From an uncultured Candidatus Actinomarina sp. (GTDB lineage Bacteria > Actinomycetota > Acidimicrobiia > Actinomarinales > Actinomarinaceae), in contig CACKFQ010000003.1 in assembly GCA_902599555.1 (NCBI GenBank), positions 607 to 64,606 on the forward strand: DNA of 64,000 bases. Direction: 5' to 3'. The notes beneath the pieces were generated by a model. That model was given only the letters and a program-made list of their open reading frames with translations. It had not been told where the DNA came from and made no database searches. The position numbers were made by a program, and so were the translations under genes. Shown piece by piece: positions 46,226-64,000 of this stretch (the stretch's first letter is position 1; the number at the start of each line of letters is the position of its first letter).

Positions 46226-46600
46226 TTATTGCTCCTTCTCTAATTTGCTAGATGAGCGCTTGCGTCCAAATATTAAAAATATAATTGATAATATTCCGAG
46301 CAATGTCAATAATATTATTTTTGTGCTCTTACTTGTAGTTGTTTTTACTTTTTTATCTAATGATGACATTACCTTCGAAGCAAAGTCTGTTGGTACTTCA
46401 ACTTCTTTTTTGAATTCATTATCTAATTCCTTTTTAAAGGCTTTATATCTTTTTCCAGAGACTTGACATTTAATACACGAAGAGGCGTGTGCATTGTTAT
46501 CGAAACCAAAATATTGATTGCTAAGATAAGAAGACAACATATTATTTCTGGTTCTTTTACAAAGTATATTTGTTTTCAAGTTTGAAAAAATATCTTTCAT
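46226..46600 (-). CDS. membrane-anchored zinc-binding (ZAS) anti-sigma factor
   Basis: 124 aa. C14-x23-H38-x3-C42-x2-C45 (HASSCIKC) fits the ZAS pattern. A single C-terminal TM (IILLTLLGILSIIFLIFG) leaves only ~12 residues beyond it. An ATGA overlap joins it to the sigma gene. Confidence 0.8.
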   Translation of the reverse strand: MKDIFSNLKTNILCKRTRNNMLSSYLSNQYFGFDNNAHASSCIKCQVSGKRYKAFKKELDNEFKKEVEVPTDFASKVMSSLDKKVKTTTSKSTKIILLTLLGILSIIFLIFGRKRSSSKLEKEQ

Positions 46601-47181
46601 CTTTCTACTTCCTCTAATATCTGTCTTAATTTTTGATGAGCTCTATGCAATCTAACTTTTGCAGCTGTAACACTTATTCCAAGAAACTCAGCAATCTCTT
46701 TGTGTGATCTACCTTCAATGTTTTTCAACTCAACAATTATTCTCTGATCCATTGGAATCTTATCTAAAGCACTTACTAAGACAGAAGATAGATCTGAATT
46801 AATGGCAACTAGCTCTGGATCTTTTTTTTCGTCAATAACAATTGGCTCATAAGTTTCCTCAATATTAAGAGTGTTATGCTTCTTTGCTTTTTTTCTGAGA
46901 GTCCATGCTGTGTTAACGGTAATTCTATAAATCCAGGTACTAAATGTAGAATCTCCGCGAAACTTTTCAATTGCTTTCCATGCTCTAATAAATGACTCTT
47001 GTGCTACATCATTTGCCATTTCTCTGTTGCCGGTTAATTTGTAAGCTAATGAAAAGACTAAATCCTGATGCCTAACAACTAATTGTTCAAACGCAGATTT
47101 GTCACCAAACTGTGATTTTTTGACTAACTCTGAATTAGAGATGTCATCATTGTAGTTTTCTATATTAGAAACGTTTTTCAT
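46597..47181 (-). CDS. ECF (group 4) sigma-70 family sigma factor
   Basis: 194 aa with region 2 (...DVAQESFIRAWKAI..F......FSTWIYRI..N) and region 4 HTH (...SHKEIAEFLGISVTAAKVRLHRA). Confidence 0.92.
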   Translation of the reverse strand: MKNVSNIENYNDDISNSELVKKSQFGDKSAFEQLVVRHQDLVFSLAYKLTGNREMANDVAQESFIRAWKAIEKFRGDSTFSTWIYRITVNTAWTLRKKAKKHNTLNIEETYEPIVIDEKKDPELVAINSDLSSVLVSALDKIPMDQRIIVELKNIEGRSHKEIAEFLGISVTAAKVRLHRAHQKLRQILEEVER

Positions 47182-51626: not shown

Positions 51627-52643
51627 TTATATTTTTTTTGCTTCCAAACAATAAAAGCCGCCAAGTCCATTTGAGTCAATAAGGGCCTTAAGCCCGGACA
51701 GTTGACTATTAATTTTCAAATTTTCCATACCTTCAGATAGCAAAAGTTTTGTTTGCAAATTATCAAAATACTCATCAAAACCATTAGAGATTAAAAAATC
51801 TCTCTGTAGTGATAATCTTGATTCATAGCCAAGGGTTTTTAGTTTTTTTATCACAGCAGAAAAATTAATATCATAAGTAATATCTACATTTCCCGGTTCT
51901 AATATTGGATCCACAGAAAGGTGGTGGTCTTTATAAGTCCTAAGTAATGACCTATACTTTCTTTTACCTCTATCCATTTGTTCGTAACCATAATCAAAAA
52001 AAAGAATATTTTTTGGACTTAATTTACTGATTATTTTTTCTAAAAATATATCAATATTTGTTTGAATTTCCACGTCTATATTTTCATCAGCCTTTATACG
52101 GTTCCATTCAATCCACTCAACAGTCTTTTTTCTTGCATCAACAAAATCATATGAAAAGATTCCATCATTAAAACAAACTATTTTTTCCTGCCATTTTCCA
52201 TCTTTATATACTGCAATAGAACAAGGAATGTTGTCTAAAACTTCATTTCCAAAAACCAAATCACTATTTTTAAAAGTAAGTTCTTCAAGGTTTGAGGCAT
52301 TTTGGATATTTTTTTGACTCAACTCAGTTCTAGCTGTCGAAGATTTTTCAACAGCATATTTATTTTTAGTTTTAATATGTTCAATAAGTGATCCCGTTCC
52401 AGAACCAAATTCAGTAATATTTAAATCTAAATTGCTTTTTTGAATCCATTTATTAATAATTTTTCCAAAATACTCAGAAACTTCTGGAGAAGTAAGAAAA
52501 TCTCCACTTTTCTTTGATCTAACTTTTTTATTAGTAAAAAAACCATATTTTGAATAAAGAGCTTCCTCCATATATTCATCAAAAAATATTTTGTTGGTTT
52601 TATATTTTTTTAGAAGATAGTTATTAAATTCTTTGAATTCCAA
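51627..52643 (-). CDS. MidA/NDUFAF7-family (COG1565/DUF185) SAM-dependent methyltransferase
   Basis: 338 aa. SGDFLTSPEVSEYFGKII..W, EFGSGTGSL, GNEVLDNIP, FFDYGY and VDITYDINFS parallel the GDFITSPEISQIFGE, ELGPGRGTL, HEFFDVLP, DYG and DLTADVDFS blocks recalled for human NDUFAF7. The ATG follows the nuoN stop after a 3-nt gap. Confidence 0.85.
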   Translation of the reverse strand: MEFKEFNNYLLKKYKTNKIFFDEYMEEALYSKYGFFTNKKVRSKKSGDFLTSPEVSEYFGKIINKWIQKSNLDLNITEFGSGTGSLIEHIKTKNKYAVEKSSTARTELSQKNIQNASNLEELTFKNSDLVFGNEVLDNIPCSIAVYKDGKWQEKIVCFNDGIFSYDFVDARKKTVEWIEWNRIKADENIDVEIQTNIDIFLEKIISKLSPKNILFFDYGYEQMDRGKRKYRSLLRTYKDHHLSVDPILEPGNVDITYDINFSAVIKKLKTLGYESRLSLQRDFLISNGFDEYFDNLQTKLLLSEGMENLKINSQLSGLKALIDSNGLGGFYCLEAKKI

Positions 52644-52646
52644 GTT

Positions 52647-54125
52647 TTAATTACCAAAAAAAATCGAAGAGACTTCACCAAGGTAACTGAATATCCCAGG
52701 AAAAATACCTGCAACAAAAGTTATAAGAACTGTAAGAGCTCCTACAACTTTAAGAGGACTTTGAAATTCAAATGATTTTTCTTCTTCAGGATTTTTTAGT
52801 TCATCCATCCATATAACTTTTGAAATTCTTGCATAGTAAACAAGTGCAATAACTGCATTTATCGCACCTACTATAGCTAAGGAAACACCAATTATTTCCC
52901 CAGTACTCAAAAGACTTCTAAAGACCACAAACTTAGCAAACCAACCTCCAAGCGGAGGTATGCCTGCCAAAGAGAAAAAGAAAACAGTTGTTAGAACTCC
53001 AGTAAGAGGTGAGTGTTTCGCAATGCCTCCCCATTCATAAAAATTATCTGATTTCGTAAAGTTCGTAAAAAGATGTACTGATAAAAAGGCTCCTATATTC
53101 ATAAAGGCATAAATAATTAAATAAGTGACGCTTGCAAAAATACCATCTTGATAATTTCCAGTTATTCCAGATACAGCGAGTGGAGCGATAATAAATCCCG
53201 CCTGAGATATTGAGGAATACGCAAGCAACCTTACTGGGTTTGTTTGCTGTAGTGCTACTAAATTTCCTAGTGTCATTGTGGCACCTGCAACAATTGCTAA
53301 AATTACGCCCCAACTTCGGCCAGAACTTGCAAACACCTTTGTCAAAAGTACAATCAGTGCAACAAAGCCTGTAGCTTTGGAGCTAACTGAAAGATAAGCA
53401 GTTATTGGTAAAGGTGCACCTTCATAAGTGTCTGGAGCCCATGAGTGAAATGGAACAACAGATATTTTAAATCCAATTCCTGAAATAACTAAAATAGCAC
53501 TCAATAAAAGTACTGGCGAAGAGCCCAATGAGTTTGCAAGTAAATAGGCAGATATATCTGCGAAAACTAATTGTCCGGTTAATCCATAAATTAGTGAGAA
53601 TCCATACAATATTAGAGAAGCCGAGAGAACGCCTAGTAAGAAGAATTTAATTGCACCTTCATTAGATTTTCTGTCACCCTTTTTCCAACCAGATAATAAA
53701 AACATAGGCGTTGATGCTAACTCAATTCCAATAAATATTGTTAGCAGGTCCCTAGACGAACTTACTACTAAAGCGCCAAGTAGAGAGCTAAGGAGGAGGT
53801 AATAATACTCCCCTTGATAAAACTTATCACTTTCTATGAAGTTTATTGATAGTAAAAAAGTCAAATAAGTGATGAGTATAAACAGGCCTTTAAGAATGAT
53901 TGAAAATTTATCTACTACAAAGCTGTTGCCAAAAGTATAAATTGGATCTGAGTAAGTAGCCCACTGAATTACTAGGGGTGCTAAAGAAGCTAATGTCCCA
54001 AAAAGAGCAAAAGCTGCAACATAATATTTTGATTTTCTTGGAAGAATTAAATCTAATATTAAAGTCCCAACAATAGTGAATATAACTATTAACTCAGTTG
54101 AAATTGCAAAGTAGTTTATAGTAAT
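52647..54125 (-). CDS. nuoN: NADH-quinone oxidoreductase subunit N (proposed non-canonical ATT start)
   Basis: The track starts at TTG 53864 (405 aa), but the frame is open up to 54143. Codons 54125-53865 encode ITINYFAISTELIVIFTIVGTLILDLILPRKSKYYVAAFALFGTLASLAPLVIQW...FVVDKFSIILKGLFILITY, the usual NuoN N-terminal helices. There is no ATG/GTG/TTG in those 87 codons. GGAGGA (54136-54131) lies 5 nt before ATT 54125. Confidence 0.85.
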   Translation of the reverse strand: MTINYFAISTELIVIFTIVGTLILDLILPRKSKYYVAAFALFGTLASLAPLVIQWATYSDPIYTFGNSFVVDKFSIILKGLFILITYLTFLLSINFIESDKFYQGEYYYLLLSSLLGALVVSSSRDLLTIFIGIELASTPMFLLSGWKKGDRKSNEGAIKFFLLGVLSASLILYGFSLIYGLTGQLVFADISAYLLANSLGSSPVLLLSAILVISGIGFKISVVPFHSWAPDTYEGAPLPITAYLSVSSKATGFVALIVLLTKVFASSGRSWGVILAIVAGATMTLGNLVALQQTNPVRLLAYSSISQAGFIIAPLAVSGITGNYQDGIFASVTYLIIYAFMNIGAFLSVHLFTNFTKSDNFYEWGGIAKHSPLTGVLTTVFFFSLAGIPPLGGWFAKFVVFRSLLSTGEIIGVSLAIVGAINAVIALVYYARISKVIWMDELKNPEEEKSFEFQSPLKVVGALTVLITFVAGIFPGIFSYLGEVSSIFFGN

Positions 54126-54127
54126 TT

Positions 54128-55696
54128 TTATCCTCCAAATGCTTTAGAAAGAAGGCTAACAACAGCATCATTAGTTGCTCCAAATATTAGCTTTGGAAAT
54201 ACACCGATAAGAATTGTTAGAATTACCAGTGGGATCCATGCAGCTAATTCATAGCCATCTGCATCATGAAGCTCCATTTCATTCCATTCATCAGATGGTT
54301 CACCAAGATTAACTCTTTGCAACATCCACAACAAATATCCTGCGGTTAATACAGTTCCTATTGCACCAGCGACCATTGATCCTCGAAAAACTGTAATATT
54401 TAATCCATCAAGTGGATTAAATGCTCCAAGTAATGCCATAAACTCTCCCCAAAATCCAGCAAGTCCTGGCAGGCCTAAAGAAGCCATTGCAGTAAACCCT
54501 AACAGTGCTCCAGTCTTTGGAAGTAGTTTCATATTTCCACCTAACCTTCCCATATCCCGAGTGTGATATGTGTGAGCCATGGATCCCGATAGGAAAAATA
54601 ATAAGCCAGTGATCACTCCATGTGCGACCATACCAATCATTGCAGCATTTATACCAATTGGTGTTAATGAAGCTATACCCAACATTACAAAACCCATATG
54701 ACCAACTGAAGAAAATGCTATTAATCTCTTTAGATCAGTTTGAGCTAAACATGCAAGTGAACCATATATAATCCCTATTGCAGAAAGAATTGCAATCGCA
54801 GGCGCCCAGGCTTTTGCTTGTTCCGGAAGTATTGGTATTGCGATTCTAACAAAACCATAAGATCCTAATTTCAAGAGTATTGCTGCTAACAATACTGAAC
54901 CAACTGTAGGAGCTGCCGTGTGTGCATCGGGAAGCCAGGTATGTAACGGCCACATTGGTACTTTAACCGCAAAGCCAAGAAACAAAACTGCAAAAACTAG
55001 CATTGCAAATGTTCCTGTAAACGCACCATTAGTTCCAAGCTCAATTAACTCAGGAATGCTAAAAGTTCTATTTCCTCTGTAATACAAGCCTAAAAAGCCC
55101 AGTAACATAAATGCGGAACCAAATAGAGTAAAAACAAAAAACTTGATACTTGCATATAGTCTTGTTTCAATTTGATTTTTAAATCCTGCTACAGTTCTTA
55201 CAGTTTTATCTCCCCAAATTCCAATCATGAAATACATCGGAAGAAGAACTATTTCAAAAAATACAAAAAACAATATTAAATCAAGTGCAACAAATGTGCC
55301 ATTCATACCAGTCTCTAAAACTAAAATTAATGCAAGAAATCCCTTAGGACTTTTTGGTTCTGGTAGATGTTCAATTGAATAAATAATTGCTAAAACTGTA
55401 ATAAATGTAGACAAAATTAATAAAGGAAGAGATATTCCATCTATCCCAGTTTCATAATTTGCGTTGATGCTTTTTATCCATGAAATTTTATTACCTAGTT
55501 GTAATTTGTCTGCATTAGAAAAATCAAACTGAGGTAGGAGTAAGGCACTTAAAATAAATGTGACTATTGAAGATACTAATGCGAAGCCTTTAATTAAAAG
55601 CTCTTGGCTTTTTGGTATTGCGGTCAAAATTAATGCACTAATTAAAGGCAGAAAAACTACTGCCGTCAATCCTGTACCGTTTGTTAATAATTCCAC
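54128..55696 (-). CDS. nuoM: NADH-quinone oxidoreductase subunit M
   Basis: 522 aa antiporter-like subunit with ...PMWPLHTWLPDAH.... Confidence 0.96.
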   Translation of the reverse strand: MELLTNGTGLTAVVFLPLISALILTAIPKSQELLIKGFALVSSIVTFILSALLLPQFDFSNADKLQLGNKISWIKSINANYETGIDGISLPLLILSTFITVLAIIYSIEHLPEPKSPKGFLALILVLETGMNGTFVALDLILFFVFFEIVLLPMYFMIGIWGDKTVRTVAGFKNQIETRLYASIKFFVFTLFGSAFMLLGFLGLYYRGNRTFSIPELIELGTNGAFTGTFAMLVFAVLFLGFAVKVPMWPLHTWLPDAHTAAPTVGSVLLAAILLKLGSYGFVRIAIPILPEQAKAWAPAIAILSAIGIIYGSLACLAQTDLKRLIAFSSVGHMGFVMLGIASLTPIGINAAMIGMVAHGVITGLLFFLSGSMAHTYHTRDMGRLGGNMKLLPKTGALLGFTAMASLGLPGLAGFWGEFMALLGAFNPLDGLNITVFRGSMVAGAIGTVLTAGYLLWMLQRVNLGEPSDEWNEMELHDADGYELAAWIPLVILTILIGVFPKLIFGATNDAVVSLLSKAFGG

Positions 55697-55704
55697 TTTT
55701 CCTC

Positions 55705-57720
55705 CTATATAATAAACAAAATTAATAAACTAATCGTCACAACGCCACCTAAAAACAACATTAAATATTGCTGTGTTCTTCCTGTCTGTAGTAATTTAAC
55801 TTTCCCACCAAAGCTATCAGTTCCTGTGGAAGACATATTCAAAACTTTATCGATTCCATTTTGATCAATATTGTTATAAACTATTACACCCATAAATGAC
55901 GCAAGCTGACCAAAACCATTTACAAATCTATCTATTACATTTGTGTTAAATGCATCAACTGCTTTAGCCATATTTAATTTGATTGGATCAATAATAAATT
56001 TGAAATAGAAATCATCAATGTAGTATTTATTTTCTAATACTTTCCAAATAGGTTCGATTTTAATTTTGTCGTCTCCAGTCTCAGCACTTCCTTGAAGTTG
56101 GTATAAATAGTAACCTAGACCTATCCCTAGCAATCCTGCAGTTAAACCGAGTCCTAGAGCAAATAAGTCGAAGCTTTCTGGGTGATATTCAATAATAGGA
56201 TTTTTACGAGTAGTTACCCATTTGGTAAAGCCTGTGTAAACCCCTGGAATATTAACCCATCCAGAAGCTGCTGCAAATACAGCCAGTACAACTAGAGGTG
56301 TGGTCATCATGGAATCTGACTCATGTGGATGACCGTGGCCTCTGTACTCTCCTAAGAAAGTAAGGCAAACTGCTCTAGTCATATAAAAAGCAGTTATGAA
56401 AGCACCTAATACAGCTATAAAGAAAAAGGTTGTTTCACCTTCATGATTAAAAGATGCAAGGATTTCATCCTTAGAAAAGAAACCTGCGAATGGTGGTAAA
56501 CCGGCAAGTGCTACTGTTCCAATAATAAATGTTGAAAAAGTTTTTGGCATGACTTTCCTCAAACCACCCATTTCTAACATACTATTACTGTGTACTGCAT
56601 GTATTACTGATCCAGCCCCTAGAAATAATAGAGCTTTAAAAAACGCATGTGTCCACAAATGAAAGAGTGCTGCAGTGTACGCTCCAGAACCAATTGCGGC
56701 AACCATATAACCAAGCTGACTTACAGTTGAATATGCGAGAACTTTCTTTAGATCATCTTGAACAATTGCTATAAGTCCAGCCGTAAGAAGAGTTATTACT
56801 CCAAATAACATTACAATGTCTAATGCTTCATTTGCTATTCCTTGATAAAAAGGGAACATTCTAGCTAATAAGTAGACTCCTGCTGTGACCATTGTTGCAG
56901 CATGCATTAGTGCTGAAACTGGAGTTGGGCCTGCCATTGCGTCAGGTAGCCAGACATGTAATGGAAACTGTGCGCTTTTACCCATTGCACCTATAAATAG
57001 CAATACCCCGGCTACAAATGCGACATTTTTTATTGCTGGATAATCATGCGTTGCTTGATACAGAATTTCAGATATCCTCATAGTGCCAGTATTTAAAGCC
57101 AGAATTATTATTCCAATCATTAAGCCCACATCAGCAATCTTATTTGTAATAAAAGCCTTCATAGCTGCTGAAGAGTTGTCCTTGACTTCCCAATAATGCC
57201 CTATAAGTAAATACGAACAGACTCCAACTAGTTCCCAACCAATTAAAATTTGGATTAACGTAGGTGAAGAAACTAATACAAGCATACTTCCTGCAAATAA
57301 AGTCAAGGACGTGAAGAAAAATGTATATCTTATTTCACCTTCCATATAATTTGTCGCATAAATAAATACAAGAAGCGCGACAAGTCCAACAACAAAATAC
57401 ATCATGATTGATAGACCGTCTACTACCCAACCGAATTCAATATCAAATTGTCCGATATTTCCAACATTAATAAAAAATTCATTGGCAACCCCTTCAGTTA
57501 CATGAAGGTACATTAAAGCTAAGCTGTAAATAAAAATTATTGCGATAGTGCCTAATGCAATTTCAGCACCCTTTAGTGGAAGGCTCTTTCCTGCAAAAGT
57601 AATTATTAGTGCAGCTATAAAAGGAAGAACTACAAGGACCCAAACAAATTCTGCAAGTACGCCGCCGTCTGTGTAGACGACCTCACCCTCTGCGAACAAA
57701 TTAATATTTGTTTTTACCAT
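55705..57720 (-). CDS. nuoL: NADH-quinone oxidoreductase subunit L
   Basis: 671 aa antiporter-like subunit with ...FPLHVWLPDAM..PTPVSAL.H and a C-terminal extension (lateral helix region). Confidence 0.96.
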   Translation of the reverse strand: MVKTNINLFAEGEVVYTDGGVLAEFVWVLVVLPFIAALIITFAGKSLPLKGAEIALGTIAIIFIYSLALMYLHVTEGVANEFFINVGNIGQFDIEFGWVVDGLSIMMYFVVGLVALLVFIYATNYMEGEIRYTFFFTSLTLFAGSMLVLVSSPTLIQILIGWELVGVCSYLLIGHYWEVKDNSSAAMKAFITNKIADVGLMIGIIILALNTGTMRISEILYQATHDYPAIKNVAFVAGVLLFIGAMGKSAQFPLHVWLPDAMAGPTPVSALMHAATMVTAGVYLLARMFPFYQGIANEALDIVMLFGVITLLTAGLIAIVQDDLKKVLAYSTVSQLGYMVAAIGSGAYTAALFHLWTHAFFKALLFLGAGSVIHAVHSNSMLEMGGLRKVMPKTFSTFIIGTVALAGLPPFAGFFSKDEILASFNHEGETTFFFIAVLGAFITAFYMTRAVCLTFLGEYRGHGHPHESDSMMTTPLVVLAVFAAASGWVNIPGVYTGFTKWVTTRKNPIIEYHPESFDLFALGLGLTAGLLGIGLGYYLYQLQGSAETGDDKIKIEPIWKVLENKYYIDDFYFKFIIDPIKLNMAKAVDAFNTNVIDRFVNGFGQLASFMGVIVYNNIDQNGIDKVLNMSSTGTDSFGGKVKLLQTGRTQQYLMLFLGGVVTISLLILFII

Positions 57721-58019
57721 TTCATTAAATCAAATTCGTTAATGTTTGCGGTTTGTCTATTTCTAAACAACATGAGTACAATCGCAAGACCAATTCCAAC
57801 CTCAGCAGCAGCAATTGTAATAATAAAAATTGTGAAAATTTGTCCTTGCATCAATGTATCTGCAAGCATGGTATCAAACATAATAAAGTTGATATTGACA
57901 GAATTCAAAATTAACTCAATTGACAATAAAACCATTACGGCATTTCTTCTAACTAAGATTCCATAAATACCTAAAGAAAATAGCGCAGCTGCAACAACTA
58001 ATACAGGCTGAACAATCAT
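57714..58019 (-). CDS. nuoK: NADH-quinone oxidoreductase subunit K
   Basis: 101 aa, 3 TM, with ...LSIELILNSVN... and AAAEVGIGLAI. Confidence 0.95.
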   Translation of the reverse strand: MIVQPVLVVAAALFSLGIYGILVRRNAVMVLLSIELILNSVNINFIMFDTMLADTLMQGQIFTIFIITIAAAEVGIGLAIVLMLFRNRQTANINEFDLMKW

Positions 58020-58534
58020 ACTTGATCCTCATCAATTAATGCTTCGTCTTTCCTAGCAAGCGTTATGCCTCCAATTAAAGCTGCGAGTAAAACAAAAGAC
58101 ACTAGTTCAAATGGGAATACAAATCTACTAAGTAGTATTTCACCTAATAGCTCCGTTGAAGAACCGGATGTTATCGTCACATCGCCATCAAAACCATTAA
58201 TTAATATATATGAGAATAGAAGAAAAATTGATCCAGCTATTGCTGCTCCCAATTTTTTATTTTTATCGTTATCAAGTTCTGCATTTTTGCCAAGGGGAGC
58301 ACGTGTAATCATAATACCGAACAAGAAAAGAACTATTACTGCTCCAATATAAACGAGAACCAATACAAGTGCTACGAACTCTGTTGACAACATTAAAAAC
58401 AATATTGCCGTTAAAGCCAAAGTAAAAACTAATGAAATAGCTGCATGAATAACGTTTGAGGTTGTAACTACCCTTATTGCAGTTGATAAAAGCGCAAGAA
58501 GAACGAAATAAGTTACAATTTCAAAAATTTCCAT
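58016..58534 (-). CDS. nuoJ: NADH-quinone oxidoreductase subunit J
   Basis: 172 aa hydrophobic protein between nuoI and nuoK. Confidence 0.92.
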   Translation of the reverse strand: MEIFEIVTYFVLLALLSTAIRVVTTSNVIHAAISLVFTLALTAILFLMLSTEFVALVLVLVYIGAVIVLFLFGIMITRAPLGKNAELDNDKNKKLGAAIAGSIFLLFSYILINGFDGDVTITSGSSTELLGEILLSRFVFPFELVSFVLLAALIGGITLARKDEALIDEDQV

Positions 58535-58536
58535 TT

Positions 58537-59022
58537 TTAGCTTTCTAGACCTTCAGCCTCTGGAACAGTTTTTAACCAATCATCCAAACGTTCTTTGTCG
58601 TGCAACATGTCGCCCATGTTAAATTCAGAATATTCATATTCTGGTGACCAAAATAATGCATCAAAAGGACAAACTTCTACACAAATTCCACAGTACATAC
58701 ATAATGCATAATCAATATCGAACCTGTCTAGAACGGCTCTACTTCTTTGCCTACCCCCAGGTTTAGATGGAGGTTGTAACTCTTTATGGCCCTCAATATA
58801 AATACACCAATCTGGGCATTGACGGGCACAAAGCATGCAACTAGTGCATGCTTCTTGATCTAAAGCGATCACACCCCTTGCTCTTGGTGCAACTTTCTCT
58901 TTTTCAAACGGATAGTTTACATTTGGTTTTGAATGGAAAGGAGACAAAGTTTTTAACATATTAACAATTACGATTTTTATTCCAATTAAAAATCCAGGCA
59001 CTTTTGGTTTAAATGTTTTCAT
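58537..59022 (-). CDS. nuoI: NADH-quinone oxidoreductase subunit I (2x[4Fe-4S])
   Basis: 161 aa with CTSCMLCARQCP and CMYCGICVEVCP ferredoxin motifs. Confidence 0.96.
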   Translation of the reverse strand: MKTFKPKVPGFLIGIKIVIVNMLKTLSPFHSKPNVNYPFEKEKVAPRARGVIALDQEACTSCMLCARQCPDWCIYIEGHKELQPPSKPGGRQRSRAVLDRFDIDYALCMYCGICVEVCPFDALFWSPEYEYSEFNMGDMLHDKERLDDWLKTVPEAEGLES

Positions 59023-59993
59023 TAAAATCCAACCTTCATAACTGCAGTTACAAGAATATTAACTAAAGATGCAGGAATAAGTATCTTCCATGCAAGATTT
59101 TGAAGTTGATCTTCTCGGAATCTTGGTTGGGACCATCTTATTGCAACCAAGATAAAACCTAAAATAGCTGTCTTTGTCAAAAGAACTACTGGTCCATAAA
59201 AGTTTACCCATTCAGTTGGAAGGAGTGGTACATGGTAACCACCAAGGAATAATGTTGAAGCAATTGCACACAAAATAAACATATTCATGTATTCAGAAAT
59301 ATAAAATATAAGAAACCTGATACCAGAGTATTCTGTCATAAAACCCATAGTTAGTTCTGATTCACCAATTGGCATATCAAACGGTACTCGCATCATTTCA
59401 GCTGTTGCGGCAACCATGAAAATTAAGAATCCTACAATCTGTCCCCCAACTACAAAAGGTACTCCCCATTCAATTTGCTTTTCTACTATTCCAACTAGTG
59501 ACATAGTTTCAGCTTGAATAACTACTCCAACAACAGCAAGAATTAACGGAAGTTCATAAGCTATAAGCTGTCCTGCAGCTCTCAAACCACCCATTAGGGA
59601 ATACTTGTTTGCTGATGACCATCCAGCAGTTAGCACACCTATAGTTCCCAAAGAGCTGATCGCAAGTGCAAAGAAAACACCCAATTCTAAATCTGCTACT
59701 ACCAAAGTTGGGCTCATTGGGACTACTGCAAAAAGTGCAACGCAAGAAACCATAACATAAGCAGGTGCCCATTTAAACACGGGCCTATCAACTTCTGTAG
59801 GGATAATATCTTCTTTTTGAACAAATTTAAGTATTTCCGCAAGAGGAAATATGAAACCTCTAAGTCCTACATGTAAAGGACCCGGTCTTCGCTGCATCCA
59901 TGAGGCACCCTTTACATCCATTATTGTGAATATAATTGCTCCGTTCAAAGCAGCAATCGCAAGAAATCCAACCTTGACTAAAACTTCTGTCAT
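59022..59993 (-). CDS. nuoH: NADH-quinone oxidoreductase subunit H
   Basis: 323 aa with ...MQRR.GP..VG..G..QP.A. The 4-nt ATGA-type overlap with the nuoD stop leaves no space for nuoEFG. Confidence 0.96.
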   Translation of the reverse strand: MTEVLVKVGFLAIAALNGAIIFTIMDVKGASWMQRRPGPLHVGLRGFIFPLAEILKFVQKEDIIPTEVDRPVFKWAPAYVMVSCVALFAVVPMSPTLVVADLELGVFFALAISSLGTIGVLTAGWSSANKYSLMGGLRAAGQLIAYELPLILAVVGVVIQAETMSLVGIVEKQIEWGVPFVVGGQIVGFLIFMVAATAEMMRVPFDMPIGESELTMGFMTEYSGIRFLIFYISEYMNMFILCAIASTLFLGGYHVPLLPTEWVNFYGPVVLLTKTAILGFILVAIRWSQPRFREDQLQNLAWKILIPASLVNILVTAVMKVGF

Positions 59994-61186
59994 CTATCTA
60001 CGTCTCCTAGAACAAAGTCTAAACTTCCCATAATTGCAATTAAGTCTGGGAGTAAAGCCCCCTCAAGCATAATAGGTAAAATAGAAACATTGCTGAAAGA
60101 AGCTGTACGAACTTTAAGTCTGTAAGGCCCTAACCCACCATCTGAGACTATATAGTAACCCATTTCACCTTTTGGATTCTCTGCTCTTACATAGGTACGT
60201 CCTTGGGGAACTTTGATAACTTTGGGCACCTTTGCTTGTAGTGGGCCAGATGGCATAGAGTCGATTGCTTGTAAAACAATTTTTGCAGATTCAACCATTT
60301 CTTTAACTCTGACATCCCATCTGTCGTAACAATCTCCATTTTCTCCAACTGGAATATCATAATCAAATTGATCATATGGCAGATAATCTGTCTGGGTTCT
60401 TAAGTCTGACTTAACTCCTGATGCCCTGAGTATTGGGCCAGAAACACCATAAGCTTCTGCTGTTTCTGCAGTGAGAACGCCTACATTTTTGGTTCTTTTC
60501 TTAAAAACTTCATTTCCACCGATTAAATTTTGAAATTGATCAGCTGCCTGTATAACTTTTTCCATGGCTACTTTTGTATCTCTATAAAATCCAGCGGGTA
60601 AATCTTGAATATTTTTTTTCGAAGTGGGCCCTGCTCCGGCTGCAGGTTTTACTCCTCCAATACGATTAAAGTTTGGATGAAAACGTCCTCCAGTTACTGA
60701 CTCTATCAAATCTAAAACTCGTTCCCTATCTTCCATTGCATAAAAAATTGGGGTTAGAGCACCAACCTCAAGAGCGTATGCACCATTAAAGACGAAATGT
60801 GAAGAAATTCTGGCCATTTCAGTAAGAATTAGTCTGATATGCTTTGCTCTTTCGGGTACTTCTATTTCCATTAATCTTTCAGCTCCTGCAATAAATGGAA
60901 TCTCATTTGAAAACCCTGCGACCCAATCTATTCGATTTACAAGTGTTGTAATTTGAGGATAAGATCTTACTTCTGCGAGCTTTTCATATCCGCGATGCAT
61001 ATAGCCCAAAACAGGTTTTACATCATGTACTTTTTCACCATCTACTTTTGCTACCAGTCTTAAAACTCCATGAGTAGATGGATGTTGAGGTCCGATGTTA
61101 AGTGTCATATCTTCAGTTTCAATTTCAACTGATACAGAAGCCTCTGAAAATCTGTTCATATTCTGTGGATCTAAAGCATTAACCAT
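59990..61186 (-). CDS. nuoD: NADH-quinone oxidoreductase subunit D
   Basis: 398 aa with GPQHPSTHGVLRL and GYMHRGYEKL, ending ...LDFVLGDVDR. Confidence 0.97.
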   Translation of the reverse strand: MVNALDPQNMNRFSEASVSVEIETEDMTLNIGPQHPSTHGVLRLVAKVDGEKVHDVKPVLGYMHRGYEKLAEVRSYPQITTLVNRIDWVAGFSNEIPFIAGAERLMEIEVPERAKHIRLILTEMARISSHFVFNGAYALEVGALTPIFYAMEDRERVLDLIESVTGGRFHPNFNRIGGVKPAAGAGPTSKKNIQDLPAGFYRDTKVAMEKVIQAADQFQNLIGGNEVFKKRTKNVGVLTAETAEAYGVSGPILRASGVKSDLRTQTDYLPYDQFDYDIPVGENGDCYDRWDVRVKEMVESAKIVLQAIDSMPSGPLQAKVPKVIKVPQGRTYVRAENPKGEMGYYIVSDGGLGPYRLKVRTASFSNVSILPIMLEGALLPDLIAIMGSLDFVLGDVDR

Positions 61187-61724
61187 CTACTGATCCATCA
61201 CTTTCTGATTCTTCTGGCATTCCCTCAACATCTACATCTCCCGGCCAAGGTTTAACTTCTCTACTTATTAACTCAAAAGATTTCAGCATAGGATTTCCTT
61301 CATACCCATCAGGAAGATAAAGTTTTTCAAGATTTGGATGATTTTCAAAATTTATACCAAACATTTCGTATGCTTCTCTTTCATGCCAATTTGCACCAGC
61401 GTACACATCAATAAGTGAGTTAATATTTGGCTCTGATTTACTAATACTTGTTGATACAGTAACTAAGTTAGTATTGTCTAAATCTGAAAGGCATGTGATT
61501 ATTTCAAAACTAGGAGAAACACTCTCTTTTGGTGCTTCACCAACAGAAACTTCATTGTCCCAATCTATTGCTGAGAGCCAAGAGAAAAATTTTAAATTAA
61601 ATTCATCTCTAAGTTTTTTATGCACATCAATCCACTCTGTTGAATCAATTTTTATGTTGATTGTTTCAAACTCAAGAGTTGCCTCTTTAAAGCTTTCTTT
61701 TATATTGTTAAAAAATTCTTCCAT
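61179..61724 (-). CDS. nuoC: NADH-quinone oxidoreductase subunit C
   Basis: 181 aa with ...ANWHEREAYEMFGI.F..HP. Confidence 0.95.
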   Translation of the reverse strand: MEEFFNNIKESFKEATLEFETINIKIDSTEWIDVHKKLRDEFNLKFFSWLSAIDWDNEVSVGEAPKESVSPSFEIITCLSDLDNTNLVTVSTSISKSEPNINSLIDVYAGANWHEREAYEMFGINFENHPNLEKLYLPDGYEGNPMLKSFELISREVKPWPGDVDVEGMPEESESDGSVDG

Positions 61725-61725
61725 C

Positions 61726-62223
61726 TTAAATTGGCTCAGTTTGAACTTCTAACCACTTCTCTTTCATGTCTTCTCCGCGAATTTTTTTCTGTAGAAGAAT
61801 AATTCCTTCTTGCAATGCCTCAGGTCTTGGTGGACAACCGGGAACATAAACATCAACAGGGATTAATTGATCTACTCCCTTGGTGACTGAGTAAGAGTCC
61901 CAATAAGGTCCACCACTATTAGAACAAGATCCCATTGAAATAACATATTTTGGCTCAGGCATTTGGTCATAAAGCCTTTTCACAGAAGGAGCCATTTTAT
62001 CTGTTACTGTTCCTGCAACAATCATAAAATCCGCCTGACGTGGAGATGCTGGAAGAGGAATAACTCCTAACCTCATAAAATCATGCCTTGGCCCGCTTAC
62101 AGCCATAACCTCAATAGCGCAACATGCTAATCCAAATTGAAAGTACCATAGCGAGTATGATCTGGCCCAGTTGAATACTGAAGATATGGGTTTTGGTAGG
62201 CCGAATTTATCTATGACTCCCAT
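61726..62223 (-). CDS. nuoB: NADH-quinone oxidoreductase subunit B
   Basis: 165 aa with the N2-cluster ligand pattern GLACCAIE ... [10 protein letters not shown] ... GCPPRPE. Confidence 0.97.
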
Positions 62224-62579
62224 TTTAAGACATCCTTTCTTATTGCGTATATAAGTCCAATTAACAAAATAAATATAAAAACAAACATTTCAATTAAGCC
62301 AAAGTAGCCAAGTTTTTCTAGGTTGATAGCCCATGGAAATATGAAGACCGCTTCGACATCAAATATTACGAAAAGCAAGCCGAATATATAATACCTTACG
62401 TATGTTTGACTCCATCCAGTTCCAACTGGATCAACACCACATTCATAAGTTTGCAACTTTTCTTCATAAGGCTTGTTTGGTCTTAGTACTGAAGCTACTC
62501 CAAGAAGCAATACGACAAGAAAGAGGCCAAAACCTAGCACTGCTCCTATGGTCACGTAATCTTGAAAATAAGAAATCAT
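62211..62579 (-). CDS. nuoA: NADH-quinone oxidoreductase subunit A
   Basis: 122 aa, 3 TM, with ...YECG.DP.G......Y...L.F.IFD.E..F..PW. No SD precedes the ATG. Confidence 0.94.
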
Positions 62580-62660: not shown

Positions 62661-63749
62661 GTGATTAATAAAAATTTTTTACAAGAACCTAACCTAATAG
62701 ATCTTTCGAAAGAAATTTTTAAAGCAGTAGTTCGTGACAAAGTTGAAATAGATACAAGATTTGAACTTTTGTCACAAGACCTTTACGAAGCAGATACTAT
62801 AAACTTCATACTGGCTGATGGTCTGGGTTATAAAAATCTAAGCAGTACAGATTCTTCTTTGAATAAGAACGTTACTCAATCTATTAATACAACATTTCCT
62901 TCATCAACGAACGTTGCCTTATCATCAATATCCTTAATGAAGAATCCAATTGAGCATGGTTTGATAGGATATTACATGTATGACAAATCAAAATATGGCC
63001 TCATAAATGCTTTAAATTGGAATGAGGATAATAAAAATTTATTATCAAACAATTATTATCGAAAACAAAGTTCAATTTGGAAAATTTTTAAAGACAACAA
63101 AATTTATGCTTCGAATTTTCAACCTAGAAACCTGGTTGGGAGTCCACTGTCAAATTTTTTGTATGAGCAATCGAATACTATTCCTTATGATAATGCACAA
63201 AGTCTTCTAGAGTTGTTATCAGATTCTTCGATTTTAGAGAATAGGTTTAATTTTATCTATTATCCATTAATTGACGTTACAGCTCATATATTTGGAGTGA
63301 ATTCAGATGAGTGGCAAATTGAAATAACTAAATTTGAAAAATTGGTTAATGAGATTTCAAATATTAGTAACAAGAAAACAAAAACAATAATTTCTGCTGA
63401 TCACGGTCTTGTAAATATTAACGATGAATTTCGTCATCATTTGAATTATGGTGATGACCTACAAATATACGGAGACCAACGTTCAGTTTATATAAATGGG
63501 GCTAAAGAAAATGTTTTAGAAACTTTTTCAAAAATACCAGGTGTTTTATTGGAGCAACATGAGTTGTCTTGTCTTCTAGGAGATCCCATAGATGAATTTT
63601 TACAGTCAATTTATCCTGATTTTTGTTTTTTAGTTGAAGATAAAAATATCGTATATCCAAAACATCTTTCGGCAAAATTAAAGGGTTACCATGGAGGAAT
63701 ATCCGAAGAAGAGTTAAAAATTCCAATTATTGAATTCTCTAACTTCTAA
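62661..63749 (+). CDS. alkaline-phosphatase-superfamily metalloenzyme (nucleotide pyrophosphatase/phosphodiesterase-like), no signal peptide
   Basis: 362 aa with a GTG start. Motifs ILADGLGY (metal Asp), TTFPSST (nucleophile Ser/Thr), IDVTAHIFG (D..H), SADHGL and GYHGG occur in the order expected for NPP/AP-type catalytic sites. Confidence 0.8.
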   Translation: MINKNFLQEPNLIDLSKEIFKAVVRDKVEIDTRFELLSQDLYEADTINFILADGLGYKNLSSTDSSLNKNVTQSINTTFPSSTNVALSSISLMKNPIEHGLIGYYMYDKSKYGLINALNWNEDNKNLLSNNYYRKQSSIWKIFKDNKIYASNFQPRNLVGSPLSNFLYEQSNTIPYDNAQSLLELLSDSSILENRFNFIYYPLIDVTAHIFGVNSDEWQIEITKFEKLVNEISNISNKKTKTIISADHGLVNINDEFRHHLNYGDDLQIYGDQRSVYINGAKENVLETFSKIPGVLLEQHELSCLLGDPIDEFLQSIYPDFCFLVEDKNIVYPKHLSAKLKGYHGGISEEELKIPIIEFSNF

Positions 63750-63767: not shown

Positions 63768-64000
63768 GTGAAAAATTTAAAAATTTTGCTTCTTCTTCTA
63801 ACATTTTCTTTTTGTTCCCAGTCCAGTGAAATGACAATGGGAGCTCCTGAGCCATATTTTGGTGGAGTAGAAGATATGGCTACTTCTGAAGTAGCTTTCT
63901 CAAGAGAATCTTCTTTTTCACAAGGTGACTATATCATTAAAACTGCTTATGCAAGCACAGACGTTAGTTCATCTAATTTTGAAAATACAATTGATGAAGT
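63768..64000 (+). CDS. putative lipoprotein or exported protein (N-terminal part; runs off the window end)
   Basis: Hand translation from GTG 63768 gives VKNLKILLLLLTFSFCSQSSEMTMGAPEPYFGG..., open to the window end. The hydrophobic signal ends in a lipobox-like FSFC. Confidence 0.5.
   Translation, partial: MKNLKILLLLLTFSFCSQSSEMTMGAPEPYFGGVEDMATSEVAFSRESSFSQGDYIIKTAYASTDVSSSNFENTIDE

What the first reader, a model, noticed from the sequence alone, without database searches (positions are those of the whole stretch)
52647..62579. Eleven-gene nuo operon (ABCDHIJKLMN) with the NADH-oxidising module nuoEFG absent
nuoD (59990-61186) and nuoH (59022-59993) overlap by 4 nt, so nuoE, nuoF and nuoG are not in the operon. 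The typical actinobacterial operon is 14 genes, nuoA-N. Eleven-subunit complex-I-like enzymes are known from cyanobacteria and chloroplasts (ferredoxin-dependent NDH-1), archaea (Fpo) and scattered bacteria, and they use an electron donor other than NADH via NuoF. The electron-input partner here is unknown and is not encoded next to the operon.
Basis: partly seen in the sequence, partly recalled or inferred. Interest (0 to 1): 0.6.

Follow-up and report, generated by a model that had tools for sequence, protein, structure and literature searches.

The report
Second, NADH-module-less complex I operon
The eleven-gene nuo operon without nuoEFG is real, but it is the published second copy of complex I in the marine actinobacterium Candidatus Actinomarina, and a complete 14-gene nuoA-N operon carrying nuoE, F and G lies about 13 kb beyond the end of the window.

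Summary
nuoA-B-C-D-H-I-J-K-L-M-N lie on the minus strand at 52647-62579. nuoD and nuoH overlap by ATGA, so there is no room for nuoEFG. All 11 genes are under strong purifying selection.

The window comes from Candidatus Actinomarina (OCS155, Acidimicrobiia), not from a typical high-GC actinobacterium. Walking along public contigs past position 64000 shows a tandem, same-strand, complete nuoA-N operon with nuoE, nuoF and nuoG. Its nuoN ends about 12.8 kb upstream of the window's nuoA.

Two papers already describe this arrangement: Lopez-Perez et al. 2020 (PMC7771536) and bioRxiv 10.1101/2021.02.01.429150. The second also notes the NDUFAF7-like gene after nuoN. Eleven-subunit complex I is a well-known class (PMC3144371), so the novelty is "already known".

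The electron donor is still untested. No FpoF-, ferredoxin- or flavodoxin-like gene is a conserved neighbour in the 38 high-GC relative loci whose flanks were clustered.

I did not find three details in the papers read:
- NuoD has Trp where the quinone-ligand Tyr87 of Thermus sits, in all 88 loci.
- nuoN starts at a conserved ATT codon that gene callers miss.
- Only the 11-type NuoD keeps the arginine that NDUFAF7 methylates.

The parts
62211..62579 (-). nuoA (122 aa)
   Evidence: NCBIfam NuoA models, best E 1.9e-38, below the equivalog cut-off. Pfam PF00507 on the identical public gene.
61726..62223 (-). nuoB (165 aa). It carries the four Cys of cluster N2, including the tandem CC (LACCAIE, GSCS, GCPP).
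   Evidence: NF005012 232.8 bits against a cut-off of 116, and TIGR01957 223.8 against 142.7. Motifs read from the translation.
61179..61724 (-). nuoC (181 aa, acidic C-terminal tail)
   Evidence: TIGR01961 E 3.7e-28. PF00329. The least conserved of the eleven genes (dN/dS 0.09-0.13).
59990..61186 (-). nuoD (398 aa). H39 is kept, W88 replaces the Thermus quinone-ligand Y87, and E140 replaces D139. R65 lies in an HRG motif. There is a 13-aa insertion and a deletion of about 25 aa relative to canonical NuoD. There are no NiFe Cys pairs.
   Evidence: NF004739 417 bits against a cut-off of 360. Alignment to Thermus Nqo4 (2fug_4) and cyanobacterial NdhH. Comparison with the paralog. W in 88 of 88 loci.
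59022..59993 (-). nuoH (323 aa). Its ATG overlaps the nuoD stop (ATGA).
   Evidence: NuoH models, E 1.4e-84. Junction sequence.
58537..59022 (-). nuoI (161 aa) with two CxxCxxCxxxCP motifs (clusters N6a and N6b)
   Evidence: TIGR01971 E 1.9e-25. Motifs CTSCMLCARQCP and CMYCGICVEVCP read.
58016..58534 (-). nuoJ (172 aa)
   Evidence: NuoJ models, E 1.2e-27.
57714..58019 (-). nuoK (101 aa)
   Evidence: NF004320 97.4 bits against a cut-off of 57.
55705..57720 (-). nuoL (671 aa)
   Evidence: NF005141 611 bits against a cut-off of 556.
54128..55696 (-). nuoM (522 aa)
   Evidence: TIGR01972 535 bits against a cut-off of 263.8.
52647..54125 (-). nuoN (492 aa). It has a conserved non-canonical ATT start at 54125-54123, 5 nt after GGAGGA (54136-54131). 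Public gene calls truncate it to 405 aa (TTG at 53864).
   Evidence: There is no ATG/GTG/TTG in frame between the stop at 54146-54144 and 53864. ATT (ATC in one locus) is conserved across Actinomarina lineages, and the frame offset to nuoM varies between lineages. Codons 2-88 have dN/dS 0.03-0.08. TIGR01770 scores 370.5 bits against a cut-off of 332.6 and covers profile positions 3-470.
51627..52643 (-). NDUFAF7/MidA-family methyltransferase (338 aa), 3 nt after the nuoN stop. It is probably co-transcribed and is a candidate Arg methyltransferase for NuoD R65.
   Evidence: PF02636 85.1 bits against a cut-off of 23.3. Best PDB match is 5ztz, the Dictyostelium NDUFAF7 homolog, E 1.5e-15. It is adjacent in all low-GC Actinomarina loci that extend past nuoN and absent from the flanks of high-GC relatives. 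The adjacency is already noted in bioRxiv 10.1101/2021.02.01.429150.
62661..63749 (+). Divergently transcribed PF01663 phosphodiesterase / alkaline-phosphatase-superfamily gene. It is a conserved neighbour of the 11-gene operon across Acidimicrobiia.
   Evidence: PF01663 E 1.7e-12. A homolog sits upstream and divergent in 30 high-GC Acidimicrobiia loci.

Best explanation
This is the N-module-less (11-subunit, NUO11) paralogue of respiratory complex I in Candidatus Actinomarina. It is a second, separately maintained membrane enzyme. It coexists with a complete NADH-oxidising nuoA-N operon on the same strand, whose nuoN ends about 12.8 kb upstream, outside the window.

Shown here:
- The gene content and order.
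- An intact N2 site in NuoB and two intact 4Fe-4S sites in NuoI.
- The absence of hydrogenase Ni-Fe cysteines in NuoD.
- Three antiporter-like subunits (L, M, N).
- Strong purifying selection on all eleven genes.
- Conservation of the 11-gene order across Acidimicrobiia.
- The presence of nuoEFG in the neighbouring operon.

Inferred. The enzyme takes electrons at NuoI from a donor other than NADH. Most probably this is a low-potential soluble carrier (ferredoxin or flavodoxin type), or several interchangeable partners, as proposed for other bacterial 11-subunit enzymes. It passes them through N6a/N6b and N2 to a membrane quinone (presumably menaquinone) and pumps protons. Its quinone pocket is modified (Trp for the canonical Tyr, Glu for Asp). 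It probably receives a dedicated arginine methylation on NuoD from the NDUFAF7-like enzyme encoded just after nuoN.

Confidence that it is the known NUO11 paralogue with nuoEFG next door is about 0.95. Confidence in a ferredoxin-like donor is about 0.4. The figure given for this entry covers the statement as a whole.
For: - Gene identities.
- D/H overlap.
- Source organism, and the 11-gene order in all 80 genome loci, including high-GC Acidimicrobiia at 68-73% NuoD identity.
- dN/dS of 0.002-0.13 for all eleven genes.
- Paralogous nuoH2-N2 (28-50% identity) and window-type nuoA and nuoB (100% identity) on single contigs L093, L109, L133 and L155.
- A full 14-gene operon with NuoE/F/G in L172-L175, followed by the same ABC / Polyketide_cyc2 / ADH / TK chain that leads to the window's operon.
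- Literature describing two nuo clusters flanking the heliorhodopsin gene, one lacking EFG: PMC7771536 and bioRxiv 10.1101/2021.02.01.429150.
- The 11-subunit class is widespread, including in actinobacteria, has no designated partner protein, and is proposed to be a docking platform for several donors: PMC3144371 and PMC11238625.
- No donor-like gene in the window or among conserved neighbours.
Against: No biochemical data exist for this enzyme or for any actinobacterial 11-subunit enzyme. The donor assignment rests on analogy with cyanobacterial NDH-1, Campylobacter and Desulfitobacterium.

The cyanobacterial ferredoxin-binding subunits (NdhS/V/O) were not seen near the operon. A source of reduced ferredoxin in this aerobic photoheterotroph was not examined.

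Normal quinone reduction is therefore an assumption.

I could not scan a whole Actinomarina genome for partner genes.
Confidence: 0.6

Rival explanations
1. F420H2:quinone oxidoreductase (Fpo/Fqo-like). The 11-subunit core couples oxidation of reduced coenzyme F420 to the respiratory chain. This is the proposal of Lopez-Perez et al. 2020.
For: Actinomarinales encode F420 biosynthesis and F420-dependent oxidoreductases, and the authors note up to 35% identity to M. mazei Fpo (PMC7771536). The 11-type NuoD aligns colinearly in one stretch with the FpoD model. The Trp variant of NuoD also occurs in NuoCD-like proteins of methanogen-related archaea (Methanofastidiosia, Methanonatronarchaeales).
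Against: Every subunit scores lower on the Fpo models than on the Nuo models, and far below the Fpo cut-offs: FpoD 338 against 600, FpoH 236 against 475, FpoL 371 against 1050, FpoI 50 against 180. The canonical paralog NuoD2 scores as high on FpoD (347 bits), so the resemblance is generic. No FpoF/FrhB-like gene was seen in the operon, in the stretch between the two operons, or among the annotated conserved neighbours. FpoF-containing enzymes were found only in Euryarchaeota (PMC3144371). Fpo NuoD homologs are reported to have Tyr87 but to lack His38 (PMC4758237). Here it is the opposite.
Confidence: 0.15
2. The 11-subunit core borrows the NuoEFG module made from the neighbouring 14-gene operon, and so also oxidises NADH. 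It would be an isoenzyme with different membrane or quinone properties.
For: NuoEFG is encoded on the same strand, in the operon that ends about 12.8 kb away. Both operons are conserved in a very streamlined genome.
Against: The subunits that would bind NuoG (NuoC, D, I) are only 29-42% identical to their paralogs and differ in length and in insertions and deletions. The same 11-gene type exists in organisms with no NuoEFG partner, and in Desulfitobacterium the NuoE/F homologs do not co-vary with the complex. nuoE, F and G are tightly packed inside the other operon.
Confidence: 0.1
3. The enzyme runs mainly in reverse. Proton-motive force (for example from the proton-pumping rhodopsin) drives electrons from menaquinol uphill to a low-potential acceptor (ferredoxin or F420). 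The modified quinone site would be tuned for quinol oxidation.
For: The Q-site ligands are altered (W88, E140) and invariant in the clade. The operon is in conserved synteny with the heliorhodopsin gene and iron-uptake genes. A photoheterotrophic lifestyle with a proton-pumping rhodopsin is reported.
Against: This is speculative. Nothing in the sequence gives directionality. The high-GC relatives examined with the same NuoD signature were not checked for rhodopsins.
Confidence: 0.08
4. It is the organism's only complex I, and the NADH module has been lost from the genome. This is the implicit reading of the first stage.
For: Within the 64-kb window no nuoE, F or G is present.
Against: A full nuoA-N operon with NuoE, F and G is on the same contigs in metagenomes and in Actinomarina single-cell genomes. 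It is also reported in two papers.
Confidence: 0.01
5. It is a decaying or non-functional duplicate of the nuo operon that lost EFG by deletion.
For: Gene callers leave an apparent 264-nt gap and a short NuoN. The canonical quinone-ligand Tyr is missing.
Against: dN/dS is 0.002-0.13 for every gene. The 'gap' is coding sequence under purifying selection with a conserved ATT start. Cofactor motifs are intact. The 11-type is far more similar to 11-gene operons of distant Acidimicrobiia (68-73% for NuoD) than to its neighbour (about 42%), so it is an old separate lineage and not a recent truncation.
Confidence: 0.01

Closest known systems
The truncated nuo paralog of Candidatus Actinomarinales, described by Lopez-Perez et al. 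2020 (mSystems, PMC7771536) and in bioRxiv 10.1101/2021.02.01.429150
   Same: This is the same locus. It is the 11-gene nuoABCDHIJKLMN next to the heliorhodopsin and Fe3+ ABC transporter genes, followed by NDUFAF7, htpX, a rhodanese gene and a kinase gene, with a full 14-gene nuo operon close by (verified).
   Different: Nothing in the main observation differs. I did not find these points in the passages I read from those papers: the NuoD Trp88/Glu140 Q-site variant, the ATT start of nuoN, and the fact that only the 11-type NuoD keeps the NDUFAF7 target arginine.
Bacterial 11-subunit complex-I-like enzymes (NUO11), for example in Bacillus cereus, Desulfitobacterium hafniense, Chlorobi, Bacteroides and other actinobacteria (PMC3144371, PMC11238625, PMC4758237)
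   Same: Same gene set and order, no N-module, a Q-module without Ni-Fe cysteines, a tandem-Cys N2 site, and an unidentified electron donor. The best NCBIfam NuoD model (NF008974, 366 positions) matches in a single colinear stretch.
   Different: Here it coexists with a canonical 14-gene operon in a genome the 2020 paper describes as highly streamlined. NuoD carries Trp instead of the Q-ligand Tyr (31 of 143 of the nearest representative clusters share this). An NDUFAF7-like gene follows nuoN.
Cyanobacterial and chloroplast NDH-1 (ferredoxin:plastoquinone oxidoreductase)
   Same: An 11-subunit core without NuoEFG. NdhH is the second-best solved-structure match to NuoD (6hum_H, 320 bits). It is a model for ferredoxin input at NdhI.
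   Different: No NdhS/V/O or other oxygenic-photosynthesis-specific subunits were seen near the operon. The Ndh equivalog models score far below their cut-offs (NdhH 352 against 583, NdhI 57 against 302). NdhH keeps the Tyr (RWDY).
Archaeal F420H2 dehydrogenase Fpo/Fqo
   Same: A complex-I-like core without NuoEFG. The organism makes F420.
   Different: No FpoF or FpoO gene in the neighbourhood. All Fpo models score far below their cut-offs. The His38/Tyr87 pattern is the opposite of that reported for Fpo.
Canonical 14-subunit NADH:quinone oxidoreductase (Thermus Nqo, the paralogous Actinomarina nuoA-N)
   Same: Homologous core subunits. Thermus Nqo4 is the best solved-structure match to NuoD (333 bits).
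   Different: It lacks NuoE, F and G. NuoD is about 42% identical to the paralog, with a 13-aa insertion, a deletion of about 25 aa, W88 for Tyr, and HRG instead of HTG.

Membership tests
[quoted passage not shown] | Contiguous genes for NuoA, B, C, D, H, I, J, K, L, M and N | tested here: met
   The same order is found in 88 related loci.
[quoted passage not shown] | No nuoE, nuoF or nuoG in the operon | tested here: met
   nuoD and nuoH overlap by ATGA. No other ORF of at least 40 aa between nuoA and nuoN lies outside the eleven nuo genes.
[quoted passage not shown] | NuoD homolog lacks the N- and C-terminal Cys pairs that bind Ni-Fe in membrane-bound hydrogenases (PMC3144371) | tested here: met
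   The N-terminal region is NIGPQHPSTHGVLRL and the C-terminus is LDFVLGDVDR. Neither has a Cys pair.
[quoted passage not shown] | NuoB with four Cys including the tandem CC for cluster N2, and NuoI with two 4Fe-4S motifs | tested here: met
   Read from the translations: LACCAIE, MGSCS and PGCPP in NuoB; CTSCMLCARQCP and CMYCGICVEVCP in NuoI.
[quoted passage not shown] | Canonical quinone-head ligands in NuoD (Thermus H38, Y87, D139) | tested here: not met
   H39 is present, but W88 replaces Tyr and E140 replaces Asp. This is not a strict defining feature of the class, but it is a departure from Q-reactive members. It is invariant in 88 of 88 loci.
Canonical 14-subunit NADH:quinone oxidoreductase | NADH-oxidising N-module (NuoE, NuoF with FMN/NADH site, NuoG) encoded with the core | tested here: not met
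   Absent from this operon. Present only in the paralogous operon outside the window.
F420H2 dehydrogenase (Fpo/Fqo) | An FpoF/FqoF (FrhB-family) F420H2-oxidising subunit | tested here: inconclusive
   None was seen in the operon, in the stretch between the two operons, or among the annotated conserved neighbours of the high-GC relative loci. The whole genome could not be scanned.
F420H2 dehydrogenase (Fpo/Fqo) | Subunits reach the NCBIfam Fpo model cut-offs | tested here: not met
   FpoC 78 against 220, FpoD 338 against 600, FpoH 236 against 475, FpoI 50 against 180, FpoJ 31 against 110, FpoK 92 against 145, FpoL 371 against 1050.
Cyanobacterial/plastid NDH-1 | Ferredoxin-binding and oxygenic-photosynthesis-specific subunits (NdhS, V, O, L, M, N), and Ndh equivalog scores | tested here: not met
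   No such genes in the neighbourhood. NdhH 352 against 583, NdhI 57 against 302, NdhC-like 96 against 145. Genome-wide absence was not tested.
NDUFAF7/MidA protein arginine methyltransferase (gene 51627-52643) | PF02636 methyltransferase domain and similarity to characterised NDUFAF7 homologs | tested here: met
   PF02636 85.1 bits against a cut-off of 23.3. PDB 5ztz (Dictyostelium NDUFAF7 homolog) E 1.5e-15, and 4f3n (COG1565) E 4e-14.
NDUFAF7/MidA protein arginine methyltransferase (gene 51627-52643) | The substrate arginine (bovine 49-kDa Arg85, HRG motif) is present in the partner NuoD | tested here: met
   The 11-type NuoD has MHRGYEK (R65). The paralog NuoD2 and Thermus have HTG. PMC3750175 states that Arg85 corresponds to a Thr in Thermus.
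NDUFAF7/MidA protein arginine methyltransferase (gene 51627-52643) | Dimethylation of that arginine by the enzyme | not testable with these tools
   This needs mass spectrometry of NuoD or an in-vitro methylation assay.

The most novel reading that the evidence does not exclude
The Acidimicrobiia 11-subunit enzymes, including this one, form a distinct functional subtype. Its marks are an invariant Trp in place of the quinone-ligand Tyr (plus Asp to Glu) and, in Actinomarina, a co-operonic NDUFAF7-type arginine methyltransferase acting only on this paralog's NuoD. This subtype would not be a simple donor-to-menaquinone pump. It might use a different acceptor or donor chemistry, or run in reverse to make low-potential reductant. 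It might be functionally tied to the heliorhodopsin and iron-uptake genes it travels with.
Probability: 0.15. Interest if true: 0.6.

Novelty: already known. Interest (0 to 1): 0.22.

Why it matters
Candidatus Actinomarina is described as widespread in the epipelagic ocean and has a highly streamlined genome (PMC7771536). Keeping two complex I operons there argues that the N-module-less enzyme does something the NADH enzyme cannot. What feeds electrons into bacterial 11-subunit complex I is an open question for the whole class (PMC3144371, PMC11238625). This locus does not answer it, and the locus itself is already in the literature.

The small additions made here are practical ones:
- NuoN is mis-annotated in the public gene calls I saw, because of its ATT start.
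- The NuoD quinone pocket differs from the textbook one.
- The NDUFAF7-like gene has an obvious paralog-specific target.

Tried and rejected
- Looked for remnants of nuoEFG between nuoD and nuoH. None is possible, because the two genes overlap by 4 nt.
- Looked for donor candidates in the rest of the window. It holds ribosomal/rpoBC genes, aromatic amino-acid synthesis genes, groEL, tsaBDE, glmS/glmM, an ECF sigma factor, an M48 peptidase, a rhodanese and a PfkB kinase, and no redox partner.
- Clustered the flanking ORFs of 38 high-GC Acidimicrobiia loci to find a conserved partner gene. Of the ten largest conserved neighbour clusters, four were annotatable: a PF01663 phosphodiesterase, an Fe3+-binding protein, a GNAT and a NUDIX protein. 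The other six had no Pfam match (several are probably shadow ORFs on the opposite strand). No FrhB, ferredoxin or flavodoxin was found.
- Considered a programmed frameshift or read-through that would fuse NuoM and NuoN. Rejected, because the frame offset between the two genes differs between lineages (TAA-AA-ATT against TGA-A-ATT) while the ATT and the Shine-Dalgarno sequence are conserved.
This was solved with one homology search.
- Promoter and terminator scans gave no more sites than shuffled sequence, so they are uninformative.
- Tried to place the Trp-type NuoD taxonomically. Only two of ten clusters carried organism names, both archaeal.
- Could not scan a complete Actinomarina genome for FpoF/FrhB, ferredoxin, flavodoxin or 2-oxoacid:ferredoxin oxidoreductases.

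Full report

Yes. The minus strand between 52647 and 62579 carries eleven tightly packed ORFs. NCBIfam and Pfam identify them as NuoA, B, C, D, H, I, J, K, L, M and N.

The junction of nuoD and nuoH reads GTA GAT AGA TGA CAG AAG. The nuoH ATG overlaps the nuoD TGA at 59990-59993. Nothing can be encoded between D and H, and nuoE, F and G are absent from the operon.

One detail of the gene model needs correcting. ORF finders, and the public gene calls on identical contigs, start nuoN at TTG 53864 (405 aa). That leaves a 264-nt gap after nuoM. The reading frame is in fact open from just after the nuoM stop, and it contains no ATG, GTG or TTG. An ATT at 54125-54123 sits 5 nt after a GGAGGA. This ATT is conserved in all Actinomarina lineages (ATC in one locus), while the frame offset to nuoM differs between lineages. 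Codons 2-88 are under purifying selection (dN/dS 0.03-0.08). The 492-aa product passes the NuoN model over profile positions 3-470 (370.5 bits against a cut-off of 332.6). nuoN therefore spans 52647-54125 and has a non-canonical ATT start.

**2. Whose genome is it?**

The window has about 35% G+C. Its NuoD is 100% identical to that of single-cell genomes labelled uncultured Candidatus Actinomarina sp. / OCS155 cluster. This is a marine, low-GC, streamlined member of the class Acidimicrobiia. The exact NuoD sequence occurs in 667 blocks of the assembly collection, in marine metagenomes.

**3. Is the 11-gene order a local accident?**

No. All 80 genome loci returned with NuoD have nuoD followed directly by nuoH, and the full A-B-C-D-H-I-J-K-L-M-N order wherever the contig reaches far enough. 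This includes about 40 high-GC (56-69% G+C) Acidimicrobiia at 68-73% NuoD identity.

All eleven genes are under strong purifying selection between Actinomarina species (dN/dS 0.002-0.13; dS is near saturation, so the ratios are rough).

The cofactor motifs are intact:
- NuoB has the tandem-Cys N2 ligands.
- NuoI has two CxxCxxCxxxCP motifs.
- NuoD lacks hydrogenase Ni-Fe cysteines.

This is a functional enzyme of an old lineage, not a recent deletion.

**4. Is nuoEFG elsewhere?**

Yes, close by. I walked past the window end along public contigs.

The phosphodiesterase gene (62661-63749) is followed by DUF4349, heliorhodopsin, an Fe3+ ABC transporter, an iron-dependent repressor, DUF454, thymidine kinase, a Zn-ADH, two hypothetical genes and a Polyketide_cyc2 gene.

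A metagenome scan with the ADH returned contigs L093, L109, L133 and L155. Each carries, on one molecule and one strand, a paralogous nuoH2-I2-J2-K2-L2-M2-N2 (28-50% identical to the window's subunits). About 12.5-12.8 kb further on, each carries the window-type nuoA, B, C and D at 90-100% identity.

Looking up the paralogous NuoI2 gave L172-L175, which include contigs of two Actinomarina assemblies. These show the complete operon nuoA2-B2-C2-D2-E-F-G-H2...N2, followed by the same ABC / Polyketide_cyc2 / ADH / TK chain.

NCBIfam confirms the N-module genes:

| Protein | Model | Score | Cut-off |
|---|---|---|---|
| NuoE | nuoE_fam (TIGR01958) | 134.9 (E 2e-39) | 142.4 (just below) |
| NuoF | NF010120 | 458.7 | 389 |
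| NuoG | TIGR01973 | 523 | 470 |
| NuoD2 | TIGR01962 | 541 | 459 |

In window coordinates the second operon would end near 75.4 kb, and nuoEFG would lie roughly 20-25 kb beyond nuoA. The organism has a normal NADH module, and the 11-gene operon is a second enzyme.

**5. Is this known?**

Yes, the locus itself is published.

Lopez-Perez et al. 2020 (PMC7771536) report that all Ca. Actinomarinales genomes carry two nuo clusters flanking the heliorhodopsin gene and an iron-acquisition cluster. One cluster lacks EFG. The authors suggest it may use F420, by analogy with M. mazei Fpo.

bioRxiv 10.1101/2021.02.01.429150 lists afuABC - heliorhodopsin - 11-subunit nuo - NDUFAF7 - htpX - pspE - adenosine kinase for this clade. 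It also notes the full 14-subunit variant nearby.

The class of 11-subunit complex-I-like enzymes is well established. It was found in actinobacteria among many other phyla, and no designated partner protein was identified (PMC3144371). The donor question is still open in the best-studied bacterial case, where ferredoxin from PFOR is the favoured candidate (PMC11238625).

**6. How does it most likely work?**

Shown: an intact Q-module and P-module without an N-module.

Inferred: electrons enter at NuoI from a donor other than NADH, pass through N6a/N6b and N2 to a membrane quinone, and drive proton pumping.

On the donor:
- There is no donor-like gene in the window or in the stretch between the two operons.
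- There is none among the neighbours conserved across 38 high-GC relative loci. Those that could be annotated are a divergent PF01663 phosphodiesterase, an Fe3+-binding protein, a GNAT and a NUDIX protein.
- The F420 proposal gets little support from sequence. All Fpo models score well below the Nuo models and far below their cut-offs. The canonical paralog scores equally well on FpoD. No FpoF-like gene is nearby. The His38/Tyr87 pattern is the reverse of that reported for Fpo.
- Borrowing NuoEFG from the neighbouring operon is possible but unlikely, given 29-42% identity of the interface subunits.

I favour a ferredoxin- or flavodoxin-type donor, or several donors (about 0.4). F420H2 gets about 0.15, shared NuoEFG about 0.1, and predominantly reverse operation about 0.08.

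**7. Details I did not find in the papers read**

(a) NuoD has Trp88 where Thermus Nqo4 has the quinone-ligand Tyr87 (RIDW against RMDY). It also has Glu140 for Asp139, while His39 is kept. Trp is present in 88 of 88 related loci. The paralog NuoD2 has Tyr. Among the 150 nearest 50%-identity cluster representatives, 31 of the 143 that cover the site have Trp and 98 have Tyr. The only two named Trp-type clusters are archaeal (Methanofastidiosia, Methanonatronarchaeales). The 11-type NuoD also has a 13-aa insertion and lacks a segment of about 25 aa.

(b) The NDUFAF7 target arginine is bovine 49-kDa Arg85 in the HRG motif, which is a Thr in Thermus (PMC3750175). It is present in the 11-type NuoD (MHRGYEK) but not in the canonical paralog (LHTGMEK). 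This fits the NDUFAF7-like gene placed 3 nt after nuoN. That gene is adjacent only in the low-GC Actinomarina clade.

(c) The ATT start of nuoN (section 1).

**8. Verdict**

The feature is already published. Interest is low to moderate. The remaining open point, the electron donor, is a class-wide question that this sequence alone cannot settle.

Noticed in passing
window 54123-54136 (minus strand); nuoN 52647-54125: nuoN of the 11-gene operon starts at a conserved ATT (ATC in locus L043), 5 nt after GGAGGA and 2 nt after the nuoM stop. Public gene calls start at TTG 53864. They lose 87 N-terminal residues (405 of 492 aa remain) and leave a false 264-nt intergenic gap.
   Followed up: yes
window 51627-52643 (minus strand) and NuoD residue R65 (nuoD 59990-61186): An NDUFAF7/MidA-family methyltransferase gene lies 3 nt after nuoN. 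The arginine that NDUFAF7 methylates in mitochondria (HRG motif) is present in the 11-type NuoD but replaced by Thr (HTG) in the paralogous 14-type NuoD2. The adjacency is already noted in bioRxiv 10.1101/2021.02.01.429150. I did not see the paralog-specific Arg mentioned there.
   Followed up: partly
window nuoD 59990-61186, codons 88 and 140; also L009-L088: NuoD has Trp in place of the quinone-ligand Tyr (Thermus Y87) and Glu in place of Asp139. This is invariant in 88 loci of Acidimicrobiia 11-gene operons and is shared by about a fifth of the nearest representative clusters, including two archaeal NuoCD-like proteins. The functional meaning is unknown.
   Followed up: partly
window 62661-63749 (+); L048-L088 upstream of nuoA: A PF01663 phosphodiesterase / alkaline-phosphatase-superfamily gene is divergently placed upstream of nuoA. 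The same arrangement is found in 30 high-GC Acidimicrobiia loci, despite only about 70% NuoD identity. This is a conserved gene pair with no obvious link to complex I. No NCBIfam model matches the protein.
   Followed up: partly
L172:2926-4704 (paralogous 14-gene operon, outside the window): In the canonical operon NuoC2 is only 137 aa, and NuoD2 carries an N-terminal extension of about 45-55 aa that is rich in acidic residues. The C/D boundary looks unusual.
   Followed up: no
L093:10001-11521: On this metagenome contig the Zn-ADH and thymidine kinase genes read through as one 506-aa ORF, whereas they are separate genes on L089 and L172. This is probably a sequence error or a strain variant.
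   Followed up: no
L172:719-1984 (just upstream of nuoA2, outside the window): A geranylgeranyl-reductase-family gene precedes the 14-gene operon. Its second-best NCBIfam match is the menaquinone reductase MenJ model (125 bits, far below the cut-off of 700). This is consistent with a (partly saturated) menaquinone pool.
   Followed up: no
window 1-47200: The rest of the window is housekeeping. It holds shikimate/aromatic amino-acid genes (aroE-like, EPSP synthase, prephenate dehydrogenase, DAHP synthase, chorismate mutase), groEL, tsaB/D/E plus a GNAT, alanine racemase, glmS, glmM, then the ribosomal-protein / rpoBC / secE-nusG supercluster and an ECF sigma factor (46597-47181). Almost all of it is on the minus strand with minimal spacers.
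   Followed up: partly
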